The notes beneath the pieces were generated by a model. It was not told where the DNA came from. It ran no database searches and saw nothing but the letters and a program-made list of their open reading frames with translations. From an uncultured Gammaproteobacteria bacterium (GTDB lineage: Bacteria > Patescibacteriota > Microgenomatia > UBA12405), in assembly GCA_964503465.1 (NCBI GenBank), contig CAZCYZ010000001.1, positions 17,583-81,582 on the forward strand: a stretch of 64,000 bases of DNA, written 5' to 3'. Positions 4,229 to 11,829 of the stretch are shown one piece after another. The position numbers and the translations under genes were made by a program. The stretch's first letter is position 1. Each line of letters starts with the position of its first letter.

Positions 4229-4908
4229 CTTTCCTTCTTCTCTTCTTCGGGGGGTTTTTCTCCCTCTGTGGCTTCAGCGGAGTCAGGGGCTTTCTGTTCT
4301 GTTGCTGGTACATCGCCCGGAGCCACTGTTGGTTCTTCAATTACTTCTTCCTTTGGTTCTTCCAGTTTTACCACCACCTGATCGGCTGCGGTTTTTATTT
4401 CTACCCTACTCTTATCTACCACCAAATCTGCCACCGTTACTTGTTGATCCAAGTTTTCCAACTTCGAAATATCCACCTCGATTTTTTCGGGAAGATCAGC
4501 CGGCAAAGCTTCCACTTCTACTTCTTCGGTCACCTCAATTAGTACATTTCCCGCTTTTACTGCTGGTGACTCACCCACAAACTCAATTGGCACTGTCGCT
4601 GTAATCTTTTCTTTCAGGTTTACTTTATAACCATCAATGTGAATTAAGTTACCTTCCACTGGATGATACTGGGGATTTCGAAATAATACCGGATAAGTTT
4701 TTCCATCAACCTCCAAGTCAACTAATCCCGATTCTCCTACTTCGTCAAAAACTTTATTCAACTCTTTAGTGTCTACCTGAATCGACAAAGCCTTAAAGTC
4801 GTTGCCATACACTGTTGCCGGCGTAATCCCTGCTGTTCGCAAGTGCTTTACTTTTTTCCCCAGCACGTTTCTAACTTCAGCTTTAAGTTTTGGATTTATT
4901 TTTGCCAT
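4225..4908 (-). CDS. rplY: 50S ribosomal protein L25 (general stress protein Ctc form) with acidic C-terminal tail
   Basis: MAKINPKLKAEVRNVLGKK...ITPATVYG...VDLEVDGKTYPVLFR matches the L25/Ctc N-terminal and beta-barrel domains. The C-terminus is Glu/Pro-rich. Confidence 0.8.
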   Translation of the reverse strand: MAKINPKLKAEVRNVLGKKVKHLRTAGITPATVYGNDFKALSIQVDTKELNKVFDEVGESGLVDLEVDGKTYPVLFRNPQYHPVEGNLIHIDGYKVNLKEKITATVPIEFVGESPAVKAGNVLIEVTEEVEVEALPADLPEKIEVDISKLENLDQQVTVADLVVDKSRVEIKTAADQVVVKLEEPKEEVIEEPTVAPGDVPATEQKAPDSAEATEGEKPPEEEKKES

Positions 4909-5205
4909 AATTTTTTTAGTCCACTCCGCCGGCCTTCATTTTCATTACAGCCTTTGGCACCATTAATTGGATGTTAGTATAGCACGAACCAGCAGATTCA
5001 TTCCCTGGTAAATCTGCCTCCATCCCTGTGGCTTACGAGGTTTAGGTGGCTCCCATAGATTCTCCAGAGCTATTTGATTTCGACGATTCTCGTCATCTGT
5101 CGCCACCCCGGGAGGTAAAGCCCTTAATGGATCATATTCCTTCTTTTTATGAAACAAAAAATTCATTAACTCCAATTATATCAATCAATTGCGATATAAT
5201 TATTC

Positions 5206-5577
5206 ATGGCCTCAATCAGCATCAAAACCTCCAAAATTATTACTAAATCAGGCAAAGTTCCTCTCCCCCTGTCCCATCTCATCAAAGACGATAACCAAAA
5301 CGGCCTCCCCGATTTTATTGAAAACAGTATCAAGAACGCTTCCACCGATTCCTCTTTAGATATCGAAATTAATGGCAAAAAGTATACCAATTGGGATCAG
5401 GTTCCACCGGAGGATCGTCTTCAGTTTAAGGATATTATTCCTCCCAAAACTTTAACTCAGCCAGAAGTTACTTCTTCCAACTCTGGCCAACCATTAGTCA
5501 ATATCAGTTTCCGCCGTTTGTTTCTTCTACTTCTGGTCCTTGCCGTTGTTTTATCCCTGGCCGTCCGATATTTCTAG
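5206..5577 (+). CDS. Hypothetical protein with C-terminal transmembrane anchor
   Basis: ORF followed by a strong intrinsic terminator. C-terminal hydrophobic helix LFLLLLVLAVVLSLAV. Confidence 0.3.
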   Translation: MASISIKTSKIITKSGKVPLPLSHLIKDDNQNGLPDFIENSIKNASTDSSLDIEINGKKYTNWDQVPPEDRLQFKDIIPPKTLTQPEVTSSNSGQPLVNISFRRLFLLLLVLAVVLSLAVRYF

Positions 5578-5684
5578 TGTTATACTGCCCTAATGTTTAA
5601 TATCTTCAAAACTTGGTGGCACTTCAACTAGCCTCAAGCGGGAGATATTAACTGATCAAATAAAGTAACTTGTTTTTTAATACG

Positions 5685-5709
5685 GCTCCCGCAAGGGAGC
5701 TTTTTGTTT
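5685..5709 (+). terminator. Rho-independent terminator (GNRA tetraloop hairpin plus T-tract)
   Basis: ggctcccGCAAgggagc perfect 6-bp stem with GCAA loop, followed by tttttgtttg. Confidence 0.55.
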
Positions 5710-5781
5710 GGGAGCGTAGTGCAAGGGTTAGCATACTTGTCCCCAAAACAAGTGATTCGGGTTCAAGCCCCGCCGCTCCTA
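5710..5781 (+). tRNA. tRNA-Trp (anticodon CCA), non-canonical C at position 33
   Basis: Manual fold: acceptor gggagcg/cgctcct (one G-U), D-arm gtgc-aagggtta-gcat, anticodon arm cttgt-CCCCAAA-acaag, 4-nt variable loop, T-arm tcggg-ttcaagc-cccgc. No encoded CCA. Confidence 0.55.
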
Positions 5782-5886
5782 CTATGACCAAAGAAAAATT
5801 TATCAAACCAACCGAGTTGGTTGTGCCGTCTACTATGGCGGATTTATTTATTAAGCCTTCTCACCGGAGGTTACTTTGGCCGTCCT

Positions 5887-7245
5887 ATGATTAATCTTTT
5901 TGGCATCACTATCGAGGCTCCATCGGGCAACGATGGTCAGTATTTTGACCATCTTTTAACTACTGTGGCCAAAAAAGATAACGAACGACAACTCTTAAAA
6001 CGCTTTCTTTTGACCAACTCTCGACTTGAAGAAATCACTGCCAGCGCTCAAGAATCAGCCAGCCAGCACTCTGATATCGACCACTTGAAACCCCAGGCCA
6101 TTGAATTTTATTTGTCGCAACTAAAACAAACCGGTCTTTATGAACAGGCGGTTCTTCGGCTTATTAGCCGCGACCACCTTTTTCGATCTGCCCCATATGC
6201 CGCCCAAATTCTTGCCGGAAAGTCTCCAGAATTACCAAATTATTACCCCAGTGATCACAAAAAAGCCGAAATTTTGGTTGTCGGTGCTCTAATTTCAGCC
6301 ATCAGTTTGCCGGAATGTCGCCAGTATCTAGCCCGTCATTTGGTTAAATCGCGGATCCAAGAAATTGCCAAGAATATGTTTTTTGCTATCAACCGTGGTC
6401 TTAACCCAGAACAAGTCACTACCTTCGTCTCAATTATTTACCAGTTGGAGAAAATTCAAGCCGCTCCAACCCTTGGCAATTTAAGAGAAGTTCTGCTTAA
6501 TGCTATTCTCTCCTCGTCTCCGGTGGAACTGGTCCACATCAAAAGTATTCGCTTCACCTATCCTGGCGGATCGAACTTAAGGGTGATCGAGGATACTGCC
6601 CCAGTAGAACAACTTACTGTCGACCAAGGTCATCGACTTTATCCTTCTGAAGAAGTCATTTTTAGCCGTTTGAATGCTGTTGCCTCTATTTTTCGAACGC
6701 ATGGTTTATCAGTTAATACCTCAATTATTGTTTCCGATCATGATCTTCAGTATTGTTTTCCTTCTCAGCAGGGGATTGTTCCGTCGTCAGATGTTTCTCT
6801 CGCCCACCAGTCTGTTAATCGATACATTAGTTACCTTCGACAACATCATCCGGAATGCCAAAACATTTATACCCTAACCGAATATCTCCAGTTGAGCCAT
6901 GCGGTTGATAGGTACGACCAACTATTTTCCATGCTCGTTTTTCAAGGTCATGGTGGGGGTGGTCAACACGTCTCTGAGAAAATATTAGAAATGCGGGTTA
7001 ACAGCCAATTTGAACACTATCGAGACATGTTTGGTCCAGGTTATACTCGAGAATTGGCCCGTTTTACCGCCATCAGACAAATTGCCAATGTTCTTGCCCT
7101 ATCGGCTGTCTTTGAAACATTTCCAACTATTCCAATCTTAGTTATTGATTCTCGCGGTTTTGAAGATCAACTCATTGGTGGCTATAACCCCAAATCAGTA
7201 GCCAAGTTCTTTACCAAACTCAAAGATCCGGTGGTTAAATGTTAA
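5887..7245 (+). CDS. Hypothetical protein (start uncertain; the annotated ORF starts at 5821)
   Basis: Long ORF lying between tRNA-Trp and trpS. No motif I can assign (contains GHGGGGQH). The start was chosen at the internal Met after the tRNA. Confidence 0.4.
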
Positions 7246-7261
7246 AATCAATTCAACCAAT

Positions 7262-8713
7262 ATGCCCGAACCAATAGTCGAAAGATATAATCAGGAGCTC
7301 ATTCAGCTTGGGATTGAGTTTAAAAACCTCGAACATCCTCCCATCAAGGAAGTCTTTGACTGTATGCGTTTTCTTGGTCTTCCTATTTCCGAAGGTTTTT
7401 CCACCTTAGTTATGAAGGCCGACAATCGTTATGTTGCTATCATTCGTCGCGACGATTGTCAGCTTAATATTAACCGAGCTTGCCAGGTTGTTGGTTGCAC
7501 CAAATTAACTCTTGCCTCGCCTGATGAGTTTGAAAAACTCACCCATCTTCCCTCTGGCGCCGCCCATATTCTGACTGGTCTACCCACTTATCTCGACCAA
7601 AAACTTTTTGACAAAGAATATTTAATTGGTGGCTCCGGTAGTCTTTCAATTAGTAACCGCTATCGCTCCGCCGACCTCAAAAAAATTCCCAACTCCCAAA
7701 TTGTCGACATTACCACCATCAAACAAAAGCTTCGTATTCTTACTGGTGACCGCCCTACCGGACCACTTCACTTGGGTCATTACGTTGGCACCCTTGCCAA
7801 CCGTGTTCGTCTTCAGGACCAATATGATTGTTTCTTTATCATGGCTGATCTCCACACCTTGACTACCGATTTTTCCAAAGCCAAAACTTCAACCATCAAC
7901 GATCGGGTTAGGGGATTGGTTCTCGACTATTTATCTGTCGGTATTGATCCTCGAAAATCCGTTATCTATCAGCAGTCTCGCGTCCCCGAAGTTACTTACT
8001 TATCAACTCTTTTTACTAATCTCATTACTGTCCCTCGAGCTCTACGTGTTCCTACCCTCAAAGATGTCATGCACGACCTTCACATCGAGCAGCCAAGTTT
8101 GGGACTTCTCAACTATCCAGTTTTACAGGCAGCTGACATTTTAATGGTCAAAGCCAGCCTTGTTCCAGTTGGCAAAGATCAGCAAAGTCATGTCGAAGTC
8201 ACTCGTGAGATCGCCCGTGATTTCAATAAAGCTTATGGTGAAGTTTTCCCTATCCCTGAAGCCATGATTGGTGATGTTGGCACCTTGGTTGGCACTGATG
8301 GCCAAGCCAAGATGAGTAAAAGTATTGGTAATTGTATTTATCTCTCTGACACCGCCGATACAGTTACCAAAAAAGTCATGAGCATGTATACCGACCCCAC
8401 CCGTATTCGTCCAACCGATCCTGGTCACGTCGAAGGCAATCCAGTTTTTATTTATCACGACGCTTTTAATCCAAACAAGGGGGAGGTGGCCGAACTCAAA
8501 AGTCGTTACCAAAAGGGGACTGTTGGTGATGTTGAGGTCAAGCAAAAACTTGCCATTGCCATCAATCAATTTCTAGATCCTATTCGTGTTCGTCGTGCCG
8601 AATACGAAAGCAAAACTGATCTTTTGGATCAGATCATTGATGATGGTTCTACTCGTGCTCACCTTGAAGCTCAAAAAACACTTGCAGAAGTTCTAAAGGC
8701 CATGGGGATTTAA
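7262..8713 (+). CDS. trpS: Tryptophan--tRNA ligase with N-terminal YbaK/ProX-like aminoacyl-tRNA deacylase domain
   Basis: C-terminal ~330 aa has [16 protein letters not shown] (HIGH-type), ADLHTLTT and KMSKS, matching the TrpRS pattern. N-terminal ~155 aa resembles the YbaK deacylase domain (FDCMRFLG...TLVMKAD...[10 protein letters not shown]...SGAAHIL...YLIGGSGS). Confidence 0.8.
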
Positions 8714-8718
8714 TCTCA

Positions 8719-9864
8719 ATGATTAGCCGCAATATTTTTCTTTCCTATCTTCTCTCATTCCTTCGAACCACTTGGTTTTGGCTTGGTATTTGGGTTTTCT
8801 ATTATCTTCGTTTTACCAACTATGCTGGTATCGGTCTTATCGAAACAGTTTTAATTGTCACTATGACTATTTTCGAAATCCCCACCGGTGCCATTGCCGA
8901 CCTTCTTGGTAGGAAAAGAACTCTCTTCGTTTCATTTTTTCTCCAGGCTATCTGCCAGTTTTGGATGGCCTATACCGGTAACTTAACTGGTCTTTGTCTG
9001 GCAGTTTTTATCGGTGGCCTTGGTGGCACCCTCTATTCCGGCACTATGGACGCCCTCGTTTTTGATAGCCTTAAACAAAACAAGCTTGAATCAAAATATA
9101 GCCGTGTTTTGGCACACAGTCAGACCATTCAGCTTATCTCCATGACTATTTGTGGTGTCATTGGCGGTTTTCTCTACCGTTTCGATCCTCGCTTGCCATT
9201 TGTCCTGTCCGGGGTTTGTTACTTGTTGGCCACCGGTATCACTGTTTTCCTAGTTGAACCGTCCGTTGATACCGATCAGTTTTCCTTTTCCAATTATTTA
9301 TTCCAAATGAAACAGGGATTTTCTCAACTTTTTAACCAATCAATCAGATCATTCATCGTCCTCCTTCTTGTCATCGGTGGTATTTTTGTCATTTCCTCCG
9401 AAATGCTTGATAGCATTTTGGGTTATGAATTCGGCTTCACTGACATTCAGTTGGGAGTTTTTACATCAGTCGTTTTTTTAATTTCTGCTCTGATCTCCCA
9501 ATTTGCTTCTAAAGTCAAAAACATTATTGTCATTATCCTCCCCGCCGCCATTGTCTACCTATTATCTCCGGTTTCTGGAGTTTGTCTTGGTGGTCTGTTG
9601 CTTGTAATCCGTCAGATCAGTGATACTTTTTTTCAGAATTATTCCTCTGATTTTATTAATCAACATATCGAATCAAAATACCGTGCCACCACTATCTCCA
9701 CTTTTAATATGGTCAAAAATATTCCCTATGTTTTCACCGCCGTGTTTCTCGGCGCCTTTATGGATAGTCTTGGTGCCACTACCTTTGCTTTCACCCTCGG
9801 CTTGGTGTTAATGGTTGTCATCATCGTATCGGTTAGTCGCAACAAGCTCAACCTTAGGTCATAA
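8719..9864 (+). CDS. MFS-type transporter
   Basis: About 12 predicted TM helices. MFS-like motif GAIADLLGRKRTL after TM2. Confidence 0.6.
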   Translation: MISRNIFLSYLLSFLRTTWFWLGIWVFYYLRFTNYAGIGLIETVLIVTMTIFEIPTGAIADLLGRKRTLFVSFFLQAICQFWMAYTGNLTGLCLAVFIGGLGGTLYSGTMDALVFDSLKQNKLESKYSRVLAHSQTIQLISMTICGVIGGFLYRFDPRLPFVLSGVCYLLATGITVFLVEPSVDTDQFSFSNYLFQMKQGFSQLFNQSIRSFIVLLLVIGGIFVISSEMLDSILGYEFGFTDIQLGVFTSVVFLISALISQFASKVKNIIVIILPAAIVYLLSPVSGVCLGGLLLVIRQISDTFFQNYSSDFINQHIESKYRATTISTFNMVKNIPYVFTAVFLGAFMDSLGATTFAFTLGLVLMVVIIVSVSRNKLNLRS

Positions 9865-11005: not shown

Positions 11006-11082
11006 TGGTGGGTGTGCATGGATTCGAACCATGGACCCTCGACTTATAAGATCGATGCTCTAACCAACTGAGCTACACACCC
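11006..11082 (-). tRNA. tRNA-Ile (anticodon UAU) with encoded CCA
   Basis: Reverse complement GGGTGTG-TA-GCTC-AGTTGGTTA-GAGC-A-TCGAT-CTTATAA-GTCGA-GGGTC-CATGG-TTCGAAT-CCATG-CACACCC-A-CCA is a full cloverleaf. Confidence 0.7.
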
Positions 11083-11091
11083 AAATTTTAA

Positions 11092-11127
11092 ATGGACCCC
11101 TCCGACGTCACGTCGGAGTGCTCTAAC
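11092..11127. repeat. 36-bp perfect direct repeat, copy B
   Basis: Identical to 10705..10740. Confidence 0.8.
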
Positions 11128-11144
11128 CACCAAGCTACATGCCC
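11093..11144 (-). pseudogene. Partial tRNA (5' portion: acceptor 5' strand, D-arm, palindromic anticodon-arm position) with its own TATAAT promoter
   Basis: Reverse complement gggcatg-ta-gctt-ggtggtta-gagc-ac-TCCGACGTGACGTCGGA-ggggtccat, then diverges. Upstream (minus strand) is ttgatataattcc 13 nt before the tRNA 5' end. Confidence 0.5.
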
Positions 11145-11260
11145 AATACTATGGAATTATATCAATTGTATCCTTCTGGTAGTATAAGTCGGGTGACTTA
11201 ATCCAAGAGAACTTTTATCGCCGTAGGCGAAATATAAATAAAGCGGATAATCGGAACAAA

Positions 11261-11304
11261 GTGACGATATAAGATCGGTGCTCTAACCACCAAGCTACAT
11301 GCCC
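11261..11304 (-). pseudogene. Chimeric partial tRNA (same 5' acceptor/D-arm as 11093..11144 fused to an Ile-like cgatcttata anticodon region) with a duplicated promoter
   Basis: Reverse complement gggcatgtagcttggtggttagagcac-cgatcttatatcgtcac. The upstream flank ttggtataattcc duplicates the promoter-like flank of 11093..11144. Confidence 0.45.
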
Positions 11305-11325
11305 AAAATTAAGGAATTATACCAA

Positions 11326-11580
11326 TTATCGACCTACAATAGCTCTCAGCACTCGCTTTTCCGCTGTAATTAAATTTCCCCCTTCCAACTCCTGCATATC
11401 AGTTCTTACTGTCTGCCATGCTTCTGTCCTGGCTTCCCTCGCCCCCCAGAACTTTCTGGTTCGTTCTGCAGGTTGTCCTATCACTTTTCCATTCTTGTCA
11501 ACTCCTTTGGCGGCCCTGCTCAACTGTTCATTAACTGCCCGAAACTTAGACAGATCACTCTCTAACTTATCACCAGGCAT
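11326..11580 (-). CDS. Hypothetical protein
   Basis: 84-aa ORF between the tRNA fragments and tRNA(CAU). No recognisable motif. Confidence 0.3.
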   Translation of the reverse strand: MPGDKLESDLSKFRAVNEQLSRAAKGVDKNGKVIGQPAERTRKFWGAREARTEAWQTVRTDMQELEGGNLITAEKRVLRAIVGR

Positions 11581-11607
11581 ATTAGTTATAAAAAATTAAC
11601 TTTTAAG

Positions 11608-11681
11608 TAGCAGGGGCGGGATTTGAACCCGCGACCCCAGCGTTATGAATGCTGTGCTCTAACCAACTGAGCTACCCTGCC
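11608..11681 (-). tRNA. tRNA with CAU anticodon (Met, or Ile2 if lysidinylated)
   Basis: Reverse complement GGCAGGG-TA-GCTC-AGTTGGTTA-GAGC-A-CAGCA-TTCATAA-CGCTG-GGGTC-GCGGG-TTCAAAT-CCCGC-CCCTGCT-A. Confidence 0.7.
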
Positions 11682-11759
11682 AAGAATACGAAATTATATC
11701 AACTCACAGCCTTCTTGACTATTTAATCCGTCCCTATGATAAAATTCCCTGAATCTACC

Positions 11760-11829
11760 TGCGGGGTAGTGTACGGCTGCACGTGAGGCTCATAATCTCA
11801 CAGACCTGGTTCAACTCCAGGCCCCGCAA
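11760..11829 (+). tRNA. tRNA with CAU anticodon, 70 nt (Met/fMet candidate), U1-A72 first pair and short D-loop
   Basis: tgcgggg-ta-gtgt-acggct-gcac-g-tgagg-CTCATAA-tctca-caga-cctgg-ttcaact-ccagg-ccccgca-a. It is convergent with the other CAU tRNA. Confidence 0.55.

What the first reader, a model, noticed from the sequence alone, without database searches (positions are those of the whole stretch)
5710..8713. Tryptophan decoding cluster: tRNA-Trp(CCA), unknown 450-aa protein, and TrpRS fused to a YbaK-like deacylase domain
TrpRS is not known to need editing. Yet the N-terminal 155 aa of this enzyme look like a YbaK/ProX trans-editing deacylase, fused to a canonical class-I TrpRS catalytic core. 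The gene lies 1.5 kb downstream of the only tRNA-Trp in the window. An uncharacterised protein with a GHGGGGQH motif lies between them. A cis-acting deacylase on TrpRS would be a new quality-control arrangement, or the domain may have been repurposed for tRNA binding.
Basis: partly seen in the sequence, partly recalled or inferred. Interest (0 to 1): 0.65.

Follow-up and report, generated by a model that had tools for sequence, protein, structure and literature searches.

The report
Lysine-less editing-like domain fused to TrpRS
A tiny-genome (CPR) bacterium keeps its tryptophan tRNA, a previously undescribed synthetase-like protein and a tryptophanyl-tRNA synthetase carrying an extra proofreading-type domain in one tryptophan-free operon. 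The extra domain lacks the lysine that all known relatives use, so it is a new variant whose job still has to be tested.

Summary
A tRNA-Trp(CCA), a 452-aa unknown ORF and a 483-aa TrpRS with an N-terminal PF04073 (YbaK/INS) domain lie head to tail.

- **The fusion is real.** It recurs in about 25 protein clusters and is under strong purifying selection. The same domain clade also occurs C-terminally, in tandem, on TyrRS, and free-standing.
- **It is not a canonical deacylase.** The superfamily's catalytic Lys is Ser47 here (S/P/A across the clade). The GXXXP loop is GAAHI.
- **The tRNA is unusual.** It has G1·U72, discriminator A73 (archaeal/eukaryal type) and C33.
- **The unknown ORF ("ORFx") is a new family.** It has no Pfam or PDB sequence match. 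Its confident AlphaFold model resembles cyclodipeptide synthases, TyrRS/TrpRS catalytic domains and isonitrile synthases. In all 14 loci examined it follows an A73 tRNA-Trp and precedes a TrpRS.
- **Relatives carry other genes at this position:** TrpB/TrpA, an Asp/Glu-type racemase, TrpR, or the ORF1 plus archaeal-type TrpRS-A pair of Mukai et al. 2017.
- **Nearly all these operon proteins contain no Trp.**

Best reading (moderate confidence): this is a Trp-starvation-proof decoding and supply operon. The fused domain is a remodelled module that handles the aminoacyl-tRNA 3' end. It may proofread D-Trp or Trp analogues, or it may be a non-catalytic helper.

The parts
5684..5701 (+). Terminator-like G+C hairpin followed by a T-run, immediately upstream of the tRNA. 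It marks the 5' boundary of the unit.
   Evidence: GGCTCCCGCAAGGGAGCT TTTTGTTT. A T-run also precedes the tRNA in L001/L002.
5710..5782 (+). tRNA-Trp(CCA) with G1·U72 and discriminator A73 (nt 5781). The CCA end is not encoded. The anticodon loop is CCCCAAA, giving C33 at nt 5742.
   Evidence: The same A73 type is found in all 14 ORFx loci. The canonical Shapirobacteria locus L017 has A1-U72, G73, U33.
5887..7245 (+). ORFx, 452 aa with no Trp. It belongs to a new protein family. Residues 1-210 form an N-terminal helical domain and residues 211-452 form a Rossmann-type domain.
   Evidence: - 19 homologue clusters only, with no Pfam domains.
- No PDB profile hit.
- AF2 pLDDT 89.3, pTM 0.82.
- Foldseek: PIsnA, TyrRS, CDPS.
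6532..6564 (+). ORFx motif VHIK[S/C][L/I]RFTYP at the end of Rossmann strand 1. H217, K219, R222, F223, Y225 and P226 are invariant. Residue 220 is Ser in 14 of 17 sequences and Cys in 3 of 17, making it a candidate nucleophile.
   Evidence: The assignment as nucleophile is an inference by analogy with the CDPS catalytic Ser.
6946..6969 (+). Only G357 is invariant.
7262..7726 (+). N-terminal INS/YbaK-superfamily domain of the TrpRS (aa 1-155), from a Lys-less clade.
- FSTLVMK at nt 7397-7417, with Ser47 at the catalytic Lys position.
- RRDD at nt 7445-7456.
- SGAAHI at nt 7553-7570 in place of GXXXP.
- GGSGS at nt 7628-7642.
7727..8713 (+). Bacterial-type TrpRS catalytic core and anticodon-binding helices (aa 156-483).
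- HLGH at nt 7769-7780.
- GKDQ at nt 8171-8182.
- KMSKS at nt 8309-8323.
- No Trp residues.
   Evidence: Foldseek to Chlamydia TrpRS 6ncr: TM(target) 0.92, 51% identity.
7810..7830 (.). Approximate recombination breakpoint. The window and its closest relative L001 are 79% identical in DNA from 5577 to 7819. After that the TrpRS core is a different type (52% aa identity).
8719..9864 (+). MFS transporter gene, 5 nt downstream of the TrpRS stop. It is probably the last gene of the unit. It contains 4 Trp.
   Evidence: The same gene follows the fused TrpRS in L008/L009.

Best explanation
**What it is (shown)**
- The locus is a co-oriented operon of a Microgenomates (Shapirobacteria-like) CPR bacterium, at a conserved chromosomal site: TsaD, Sua5/TsaE, L25 | operon | tRNA-Ile/Met, integrase.
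- It encodes (i) a tRNA-Trp with non-bacterial acceptor identity (G1·U72, A73).
- It encodes (ii) ORFx, a new family with a class-Ic synthetase / cyclodipeptide-synthase / isonitrile-synthase-like Rossmann domain. ORFx always travels with an A73 tRNA-Trp.
- It encodes (iii) the organism's bacterial-type TrpRS with an N-terminal INS/YbaK-fold domain.
- It encodes (iv) an MFS transporter.
- ORFx and the TrpRS contain no tryptophan, so they can be made when Trp is scarce.
- The fused domain belongs to a distinct clade of the INS superfamily. All three active-site loops are remodelled: Lys becomes Ser/Pro/Ala, PGD becomes R(R/G)D(D/G), GXXXP becomes GAA(R/H)x or G(Y/M)VSP, and there is a new GGSGS loop.
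- The clade is strongly conserved and has been joined repeatedly to TrpRS and TyrRS.

**How it most likely works (inferred)**
- The domain is an autonomous module that takes the aminoacylated 3' end of tRNA-Trp from the adjacent catalytic site.
- It hydrolyses near-cognate products by a Lys-independent mechanism. That would make it a post-transfer proofreading step for TrpRS.
- The most plausible substrates are D-Trp-tRNA-Trp or ring-substituted Trp analogues. Relatives place an amino-acid racemase or TrpB/TrpA (indole salvage) at the ORFx position.
- TrpRS and TyrRS are among the synthetases (with AspRS) whose D-aminoacyl-tRNA products are documented DTD substrates.
- ORFx is inferred to be an enzyme that binds or uses tRNA-Trp(A73).
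For: - **Homology of the domain:**
- **The fusion is conserved and recurrent.** It occurs N-terminally on at least three TrpRS core types, C-terminally (P0133), in tandem (P0136), on bacterial TyrRS (P0196), and free-standing at about 153 aa.
- **The domain is functional.** dN/dS is 0.03-0.12. Clade-specific residues are conserved in the pocket loops.
- **It is not a generic RNA-binding tail.** pI is 5.1-7.8 across the clade, with one outlier at 9.0.
- **The Trp-supply context is consistent.** Directly upstream of fused TrpRS genes lie a racemase (L026, L027, L030, L032), TrpB (L023, L025), TrpB-TrpA-tRNA_bind (L034), or TrpR plus a TrpB-like gene (L031).
- **D-amino acids:** D-Tyr-, D-Asp- and D-Trp-tRNA are the documented DTD substrates (PMC1807948).
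- **Trp-free composition:** P(0 Trp in 935 aa) is about 3e-5. The same holds in relatives.
- **ORFx fold and linkage:**
Against: - The Lys that every characterised INS-superfamily deacylase uses is absent, and the GXXXP Pro is absent in this protein (PMC11286415).
- TrpRS has no documented need to edit proteinogenic amino acids (PMC3680381).
- The one experimentally studied editing-like appendage on a TrpRS is Plasmodium AlaX-like. It has lost its catalytic residues and helps aminoacylation instead.
- The racemase/TrpB context is absent from this window.
- Whether these genomes lack DTD is unknown.
- No residue-level 3D comparison of the pocket could be made.
- No activity data exist.
Confidence: 0.42

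Rival explanations
1. Pseudo-editing domain. The INS-fold module has lost hydrolysis. It serves as a non-catalytic tRNA 3'-end or acceptor-handling unit, or a structural helper that improves aminoacylation or retention of Trp-tRNA-Trp. This would parallel the AlaX-like domain of Plasmodium TrpRS.
For: - The catalytic Lys is replaced and GXXXP is degenerate.
- Precedent: the Pf-WRS AlaX-like domain lacks its catalytic motifs and is required for aminoacylation (PMC3680381).
- There is no flexible linker to the Rossmann fold, and the full-length model has pTM 0.72.
- A tRNA_bind protein is encoded next to a fused gene in L034.
Against: - The same clade exists as free-standing 150-aa proteins, as a C-terminal fusion and in tandem. 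That argues against a precise structural role at the TrpRS N-terminus.
- The domain is acidic to neutral.
- The conserved residues sit in the former active-site loops rather than on a basic surface.
- Many close TrpRS orthologues (80-84% identical) work without it.
Confidence: 0.33
2. Ligand or tRNA-charging sensor. The remodelled pocket binds free Trp, Trp-AMP or uncharged tRNA-Trp, and tunes TrpRS activity under Trp limitation.
For: - The operon context is Trp supply and regulation: TrpR, TrpB, transporters, and Trp-free proteins.
- A conserved pocket without the catalytic Lys.
Against: - No precedent in the INS superfamily.
- Fusion to TyrRS as well.
- Nothing in the sequence points to allostery.
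Confidence: 0.1
3. Identity adaptor. The N-domain exists to let a bacterial TrpRS accept the unusual tRNA-Trp (A73, G1·U72, C33).
For: In the window, L001, L012, L021, L022 and L008 the fused enzyme sits beside an A73/C33 tRNA-Trp.
Against: - The same N-domain type is fused to TrpRS next to canonical G73/U33 tRNA-Trp in L023 and L032, and next to an A73/U33 tRNA in L028.
- Unfused TrpRS sits next to A73 tRNAs in L002, L004, L006, L010 and L013-L016.
- The correlation seen in the first four loci was broken by further sampling.
Confidence: 0.04
4. Canonical YbaK/ProXp-type deacylase acting on mischarged tRNA-Pro (Cys or Ala), fused to TrpRS by chance. Alternatively, an assembly or annotation artefact (missed stop or frameshift).
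For: Pfam PF04073 hit. The best PDB and NCBIfam partial matches are the ProRS INS domain and YbaK.
Against: - TIGR00011 YbaK scores 21.6-24.2 bits against a cut-off of 153, and the Lys is absent.
- The domain is linked repeatedly and independently to TrpRS/TyrRS, never to ProRS, in this clade.
- It is a single clean ORF present in many independent assemblies and under purifying selection.
Confidence: 0.03

Closest known systems
[quoted passage not shown]
   Same: - Significant profile match over the whole domain. The best solved relatives are ProRS INS (5znj), YbaK (2dxa, 1dbu) and APE2540.
- Size of about 150 aa.
- Occurs both fused to a synthetase and free-standing.
   Different: - Lacks the Lys said to be used by all characterised members (PMC11286415), and in this protein the Pro of GXXXP.
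- Has its own motifs: (S/P/A)T(L/M), R(R/G)D(D/G), GAA(R/H), GGSGS.
- The partner is a class-I synthetase (TrpRS/TyrRS), not ProRS.
- A 2024 review states that, apart from INS itself, members are single-domain proteins (PMC11295145).
tRNA-Trp(A73)-ORF1-TrpRS-A operon of Microgenomates (Mukai, Reynolds, Crnkovic and Soll 2017, PMC5370408)
   Same: - Same phylum and same chromosomal neighbourhood (L008).
- A tRNA-Trp with A73 is followed by an unknown synthetase-like ORF and then by a bacterial-type TrpRS 'fused with small proteins'.
- All proteins are Trp-free.
   Different: - The window has no archaeal-type TrpRS-A and no detectable ORF1 homologue.
- A single different protein, ORFx, takes their place.
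- The paper did not identify the 'small protein' as an INS/YbaK-fold domain and did not analyse its active site.
AlaX-like N-terminal domain of apicomplexan cytosolic TrpRS (PMC3240968, PMC3680381)
   Same: An editing-family domain appended to the N-terminus of a TrpRS, with the family's catalytic residues replaced.
   Different: - Unrelated fold (AlaX versus YbaK/INS).
- Eukaryotic-type TrpRS with a 72-residue linker.
- Basic composition.
- No free-standing or C-terminal versions reported.
Cyclodipeptide synthases, class-Ic aaRS catalytic domains and IsnA/PvcA isonitrile synthases (for ORFx)
   Same: - Foldseek ranks PIsnA, TyrRS and CDPS first.
- A conserved Ser/Cys lies after strand 1, and an SDxD motif after strand 2.
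   Different: - 8-15% identity, with no Pfam, NCBIfam or PDB sequence-level match.
- No HIGH motif, and only a loose KMSKS-like FFTKLKD.
- An extra 210-aa N-terminal helical domain.
- No C-terminal anticodon-binding domain.

Membership tests
INS / YbaK editing superfamily (PF04073) | Profile match above the curated threshold | tested here: met
   PF04073 scores 55.7 bits (58.6 for the domain alone) against a gathering score of 25.5, covering profile positions 1-122 of 123.
INS / YbaK editing superfamily (PF04073) | Conserved catalytic lysine (K279 in E. coli ProRS, K46 in YbaK, K45 in ProXp-ala) | tested here: not met
   - Ser47 aligns with the Lys in three independent alignments to 5znj, 2dxa and 1wdv.
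- The position is S in 21 of 23 fused homologues and P/A/S in free-standing ones. More distant outgroups P0142, P0144 and P0168 keep K.
INS / YbaK editing superfamily (PF04073) | GXXXP substrate-binding loop | tested here: not met
   - The window protein has G99-A-A-H-I. The Gly is invariant but the Pro is absent.
- A sister subgroup of fused enzymes keeps G(Y/M)VSP.
INS / YbaK editing superfamily (PF04073) | Hydrolysis of a mischarged aminoacyl-tRNA | not testable with these tools
   Needs deacylation assays.
YbaK proper (Cys-tRNA(Pro) deacylase, TIGR00011) | Equivalog-level score | tested here: not met
   21.6-24.2 bits against a cut-off of 153.25.
Bacterial tryptophanyl-tRNA synthetase (TIGR00233) | Equivalog score, the HIGH, GxDQ and KMSKS motifs, and the TrpRS fold | tested here: met
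   - 290.9 bits against a cut-off of 176.75.
- HLGH, GKDQ and KMSKS are present.
- Foldseek TM(target) is 0.90-0.92 to the TrpRS of Chlamydia, D. radiodurans (TrpRS II) and Thermotoga.
Mukai 2017 non-canonical Trp operon | tRNA-Trp with discriminator A73 heading the operon | tested here: met
   A at nt 5781 follows the acceptor stem GGGAGCG/CGCTCCT.
Mukai 2017 non-canonical Trp operon | An ORF1 homologue and an archaeal-type TrpRS-A between the tRNA and the bacterial TrpRS | tested here: not met
   - ORFx against the L008 ORF1 gives BLASTP E 0.36. hhalign gives E 0.013-0.016 at 3% probability.
- The window contains only one TrpRS-like gene.
Mukai 2017 non-canonical Trp operon | Operon proteins devoid of tryptophan | tested here: met
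   0 Trp in ORFx (452 aa) and the TrpRS (483 aa). About 10 would be expected.
Cyclodipeptide synthases (for ORFx) | Class-Ic-like Rossmann fold | tested here: met
   [not shown]
Cyclodipeptide synthases (for ORFx) | Family profile match and catalytic Ser/Tyr/Glu/Tyr constellation | tested here: inconclusive
   - No Pfam hit for any of the 17 members.
- A conserved Ser/Cys220 follows strand 1.
- No residue-level structural alignment was available.
Class I aminoacyl-tRNA synthetases (for ORFx) | HIGH and KMSKS signature motifs | tested here: not met
   - No HIGH motif.
- Only FFTKLKD at the C-terminus resembles KMSKS.
- Profile-profile comparison with the TrpRS alignment is not significant.

The most novel reading that the evidence does not exclude
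Two linked novelties.

(1) The Lys-less INS clade is a new kind of proofreading domain that gives class-Ic synthetases (TrpRS and TyrRS) a cis or trans editing step. TrpRS is generally thought not to need one. The substrates would be D-aminoacyl or ring-modified aminoacyl-tRNAs in organisms that live on salvaged Trp or indole.

(2) tRNA-Trp(A73) plus ORFx is a mobile two-gene cassette. It has displaced the canonical G73 tRNA-Trp next to resident bacterial TrpRS genes. ORFx would be a radically diverged class-Ic enzyme that either enables charging of, or draws tryptophan from, an archaeal-identity tRNA inside a bacterium.
Probability: 0.25. Interest if true: 0.88.

Novelty: new variant of a known kind. 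Interest (0 to 1): 0.66.

Why it matters
- **TrpRS editing.** TrpRS is the textbook example of a synthetase that manages without editing. A conserved, repeatedly acquired editing-fold domain on TrpRS and TyrRS could reveal a hidden fidelity problem, such as chirality or Trp analogues in salvage-dependent cells. Alternatively, it would be a second, independent case of an editing fold recycled as a synthetase helper.
- **INS mechanism.** Loss of the 'universal' Lys makes this clade a natural experiment on how INS-fold domains work.
- **tRNA identity.** In ORFx operons an A73 tRNA-Trp sits where relatives have a G73 tRNA-Trp. It lies beside ordinary bacterial TrpRS genes that show no tracking substitutions. 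This poses a concrete tRNA-identity puzzle and may be a source of orthogonal tRNA/enzyme parts.
- **New family.** ORFx adds a new family to the small set of class-I-synthetase-derived enzymes (CDPS, IsnA/PvcA, MshC, BshC).

Tried and rejected
- **C33 and the fusion.** The hypothesis that the N-domain correlates with C33 or A73 held in the first four fused loci. It was rejected after the metagenome scan (L023, L032, L028).
- **ORFx and Mukai's ORF1.** ORFx is not detectably related to ORF1 or to the 299-aa ORF of L008. BLASTP and hhalign are non-significant. The same holds for the 426-aa (L019) and 503-aa (L033) unknowns.
- **ORFx and TrpRS.** The profile-profile comparison was non-significant.
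- **Riboswitch.** An Rfam scan for a T-box or other leader RNA in 4800-9000 found only the tRNA.
- **TrpRS adaptation to A73.** A search for TrpRS core residues that track the A73/ORFx context found none.
  - The search for related loci with diverse N-domain alignments failed for lack of a conserved stretch.
  - A word-index search with the N-domain alone returned only 3 proteins.
  - The afdb50 fold library was unavailable.
  - Foldseek on the full-length model listed only TrpRS among its 50 best hits, so the N-domain fold was not ranked separately.
- **Other copies.** A tblastn search of the window for a second TrpRS, a second N-domain or an E. coli-like DTD found none. With only 64 kb searched, the DTD result is uninformative.
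- **Literature.** A search for DTD status in CPR gave nothing usable.
Full report
**Observation.** ARAGORN finds a single tRNA-Trp(CCA) at 5710-5782, and Rfam confirms it at 55 bits. Three co-oriented ORFs follow.
- The first ORF reads mechanically as 5821-7245. All homologues start at the ATG at 5887 (452 aa, MINLFG...).
- The second is a 483-aa ORF at 7262-8713.
- The third is an MFS transporter starting 5 nt later.

The 483-aa protein matches Pfam tRNA_edit (PF04073) over residues 25-141, with E 6.6e-15 and 55.7 bits against a gathering score of 25.5. It matches tRNA-synt_1b over residues 155-438. NCBIfam trpS scores 290.9 bits against a cut-off of 176.75. HLGH, GKDQ and KMSKS are intact.

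**The fusion is real.**
- About 25 of the 120 best homologue clusters have the same two-domain architecture. They come from NCBI, JGI, ENA and Logan assemblies named Microgenomates or Shapirobacteria.
- In the AlphaFold model (pLDDT 88.7, pTM 0.72) the N-domain is well folded. It runs into the first Rossmann strand without a linker.
- dN/dS for the N-domain against four relatives is 0.03-0.12.
- A missed stop or frameshift is excluded.

**The N-domain is a separate, Lys-less clade of the INS superfamily.** According to PMC11286415, all characterised INS-superfamily members use a highly conserved Lys and a GXXXP loop.
- HMMER alignments of the N-domain to three solved relatives (ProRS INS 5znj, E. 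coli YbaK 2dxa, APE2540 1wdv) all put Ser47 (FSTLVMK) opposite the K of their KT(L/M) motif.
- Among 23 fused homologues the position is Ser in 21, Ala in one and Pro in one.
- An exhaustive search of 1.84 billion representatives found only 147 relatives. The close ones have S/P/A at this position and share other clade-specific loops: R(R/G)D(D/G), GAA(R/H)x or G(Y/M)VSP, and GGSGS.
- More distant hits (P0142, P0144, P0168) keep K, PGD and GXXXP.
- In the window protein Gly99 is kept, but the Pro of GXXXP is Ile103.
- The YbaK equivalog model scores only 22-24 bits against a cut-off of 153.

The domain is thus homologous to editing domains but fails two defining active-site features.

**The clade is tied to class-Ic synthetases.**
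- It is fused N-terminally to at least three divergent bacterial TrpRS core types.
- It is fused C-terminally in P0133 and occurs in tandem duplicate in P0136.
- It is fused to a bacterial TyrRS in P0196 (tyrS 290.9 bits).
- It also exists as free-standing proteins of about 153 aa.
- N-domain type and core type are combined mosaically. P0009-P0011 share 86-90% identity with the window's N-domain but only 51% with its core. P0006, P0008 and P0012-P0014 show the reverse pattern.
- At the DNA level the window and its nearest relative L001 are 79% identical from 5577 to 7819, about 30 codons into the core. Similarity then collapses.

Repeated, independent joining of the two parts is strong evidence for a functional link.

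**The tRNA is not a standard bacterial tRNA-Trp.** Its acceptor stem is GGGAGCG/CGCTCCT (G1·U72). The discriminator is A73 (nt 5781). CCA is not encoded. The anticodon loop is CCCCAAA, so position 33 is C rather than the near-universal U. In contrast, the typical Shapirobacteria locus L017 sits in the same synteny with a TrpRS core 81% identical. Its tRNA-Trp has A1-U72, G73 and U33.

**ORFx.**
- Only 19 homologue clusters exist, none with a Pfam domain. A profile search of PDB sequences finds nothing.
- The AlphaFold model is confident (pLDDT 89.3, pTM 0.82). It has a helical N-terminal half and an alpha/beta C-terminal half.
- Foldseek independently ranks the isonitrile synthase PIsnA, TyrRS and CDPS first.
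- Invariant polar residues cluster at the ends of strands 1 and 2, where these enzymes bind substrates: VHIK[S/C]LRFTYP, PSEExxFxR and SDxDLxYCFP.
- I infer that ORFx is an enzyme derived from a class-Ic synthetase-type fold, with Ser/Cys220 as a candidate nucleophile. This step is inference.

**Linkage of ORFx.** In all 14 loci recovered, ORFx is preceded by a tRNA-Trp with A73 and followed directly by a TrpRS.
- The loci are the window, L001, L002/3, L004/5, L006/7, L010, L012-L016, L021 and L022. They come from Shapirobacteria, Daviesbacteria, Amesbacteria and unbinned contigs.
- The following TrpRS may be fused or unfused. Its core ranges from 30% to 81% identity to the window's.
- ORFx identity is discordant with TrpRS identity. 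Against L022, ORFx is 37% identical while the core is 81%. Against L001, ORFx is 79% and the core 52%.
- No TrpRS residue tracks the A73 context.

The tRNA(A73)-ORFx pair therefore behaves as a cassette inserted upstream of resident TrpRS genes.

**Relation to published work.** Mukai et al. 2017 (PMC5370408) described a related operon in a few Microgenomates. It runs tRNA-Trp(A73), ORF1 (unknown, synthetase-like motifs), TrpRS-A (archaeal type), then a bacterial-type TrpRS.
- L008 and L028 are such operons at the same chromosomal site, and their downstream TrpRS carries the same N-domain.
- The window is a variant in which ORFx replaces ORF1 plus TrpRS-A. ORFx is not detectably homologous to ORF1.
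- I found no paper in the searchable library that identifies the 'small protein' as an INS/YbaK-fold domain or notes the missing Lys.

**Wider context of fused TrpRS genes.** A metagenome scan with the N-domain recovered 14 loci. The genes directly upstream of the fused TrpRS were as follows.

| Upstream gene(s) | Loci |
|---|---|
| ORFx | L021, L022 |
| Asp/Glu-type racemase | L026, L027, L030, L032 (also upstream of the unfused TrpRS in L017/18) |
| TrpB | L023, L025 |
| TrpB-TrpA-tRNA_bind | L034 |
| TrpR plus a TrpB-like gene plus EamA | L031 |
| ORF1 plus TrpRS-A | L028 |
| Unknown genes | L033 |

- L023 and L032 pair the fused enzyme with canonical G73/U33 tRNAs. The N-domain is therefore not an adaptor for A73 or C33. 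That idea looked good after four loci and was refuted by further sampling.
- Nearly all of these operon proteins contain no Trp.
- For the window, the probability of zero Trp in 935 residues at the local 1.12% frequency is about 3e-5.
- The common theme is tryptophan acquisition and decoding, built so that it can be expressed when Trp is limiting.

**Mechanism.**

*Shown:*
- The domain is homologous to editing domains and is fused to the TrpRS.
- The active-site loops are remodelled but conserved.
- The domain is autonomous, occurring free-standing and in other fusion positions.
- Its composition is acidic to neutral, with pI 5.1-7.8 and one outlier at 9.0.
- It is linked to TrpRS and TyrRS.

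*Inferred:* the domain still binds the aminoacylated 3' end.
- My preferred reading (about 0.4) is Lys-independent proofreading of near-cognate products. D-Trp is attractive because D-Tyr-, D-Asp- and D-Trp-tRNAs are the documented substrates of DTD (PMC1807948). Racemases are also co-encoded in relatives. Analogues made by TrpB from substituted indoles are an alternative substrate.
- The main rival (about 0.33) is a pseudo-editing helper. The precedent is the AlaX-like domain of Plasmodium TrpRS, which lost its catalytic residues and is needed for aminoacylation (PMC3680381).
- A sensor role (about 0.1) cannot be excluded.
- For ORFx I consider three roles:
  - a tRNA-Trp(A73)-dependent transferase of the CDPS type;
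  - a factor needed to charge the A73 tRNA;
  - a Trp-modifying enzyme of the IsnA type.

  I cannot rank these three firmly. The perfect association with A73 favours the first two.

**Limits.**
- Only 64 kb of the genome is visible. I cannot say whether a second tRNA-Trp, a second TrpRS, a dtd gene or a free-standing copy of the domain exists elsewhere.
- No coordinates were available for residue-level structural comparison.
- There are no activity data.

**Verdict.** The feature is a new variant of known kinds: an INS-fold domain lacking its catalytic Lys on a class-I synthetase, beside a new class-Ic-fold protein family travelling with an archaeal-identity tRNA-Trp. It is partly foreshadowed by Mukai et al. 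2017 but uncharacterised. Interest is 0.66.

Noticed in passing
window 5741-5747 (C33 at 5742); also L001, L012, L021, L022, L008: The tRNA-Trp anticodon loop is CCCCAAA, so position 33 is C instead of the near-universal U33. The same change recurs on two different tRNA backbones, the ORFx type and the L008 type. Other A73 tRNA-Trp genes have CUCCAAA.
   Followed up: partly
window about 7819; L001 about 4265: There is a sharp drop in DNA identity, from 79% to unalignable or 69%, about 30 codons into the TrpRS core, just after the HIGH motif. Closely related genomes carry the same tRNA, ORFx and N-domain but different TrpRS cores and different downstream genes. The site looks like a recombination hot spot.
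   Followed up: partly
L017/L018 4290-4985; L026, L027, L030, L032; L004 1192-1907: An Asp/Glu/hydantoin-family racemase with both Cys motifs and no Trp is encoded between tRNA-Trp and TrpRS in many Microgenomates. It occupies exactly the position of ORFx in the window.
   Followed up: partly
L028 215-365: Two tandem tRNA-Trp genes head an ORF1 / TrpRS-A / fused-TrpRS operon. One is bacterial type (A1-U72, G73) and one archaeal type (G1-C72, A73). This looks like two parallel tRNA/synthetase pairs in one operon.
   Followed up: no
L033 94-2572: A Trp-free 503-aa unknown protein and a cucumopine-synthase-like protein (PF18631, a Pictet-Spengler-type opine synthase family) lie directly upstream of a fused TrpRS.
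   Followed up: no
window 11006-11829 (and the same cluster in L002, L008, L012, L017, L027): A conserved cluster of tRNA-Ile(UAU) with two tRNA-Met(CAU)-type genes lies just downstream of the Trp operon. A UAU isoleucine tRNA is uncommon in bacteria.
   Followed up: no
protein P0172 (470 aa): A Lys-retaining YbaK-like domain is fused C-terminally to an alanine-dehydrogenase-like domain. This is another unusual partner for an editing-fold domain.
   Followed up: no
window 7727-8710: The closest solved structures to the TrpRS core are Chlamydia trachomatis TrpRS (51% identity) and Deinococcus radiodurans TrpRS II (48%), the auxiliary TrpRS. The housekeeping enzymes of model bacteria are more distant.
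   Followed up: no
L013, L014, L015: Three short contigs carrying the tRNA-Trp(A73)-ORFx-TrpRS module are deposited in MAGs labelled 'uncultured Gammaproteobacteria'. They are probably mis-binned CPR contigs.
   Followed up: no
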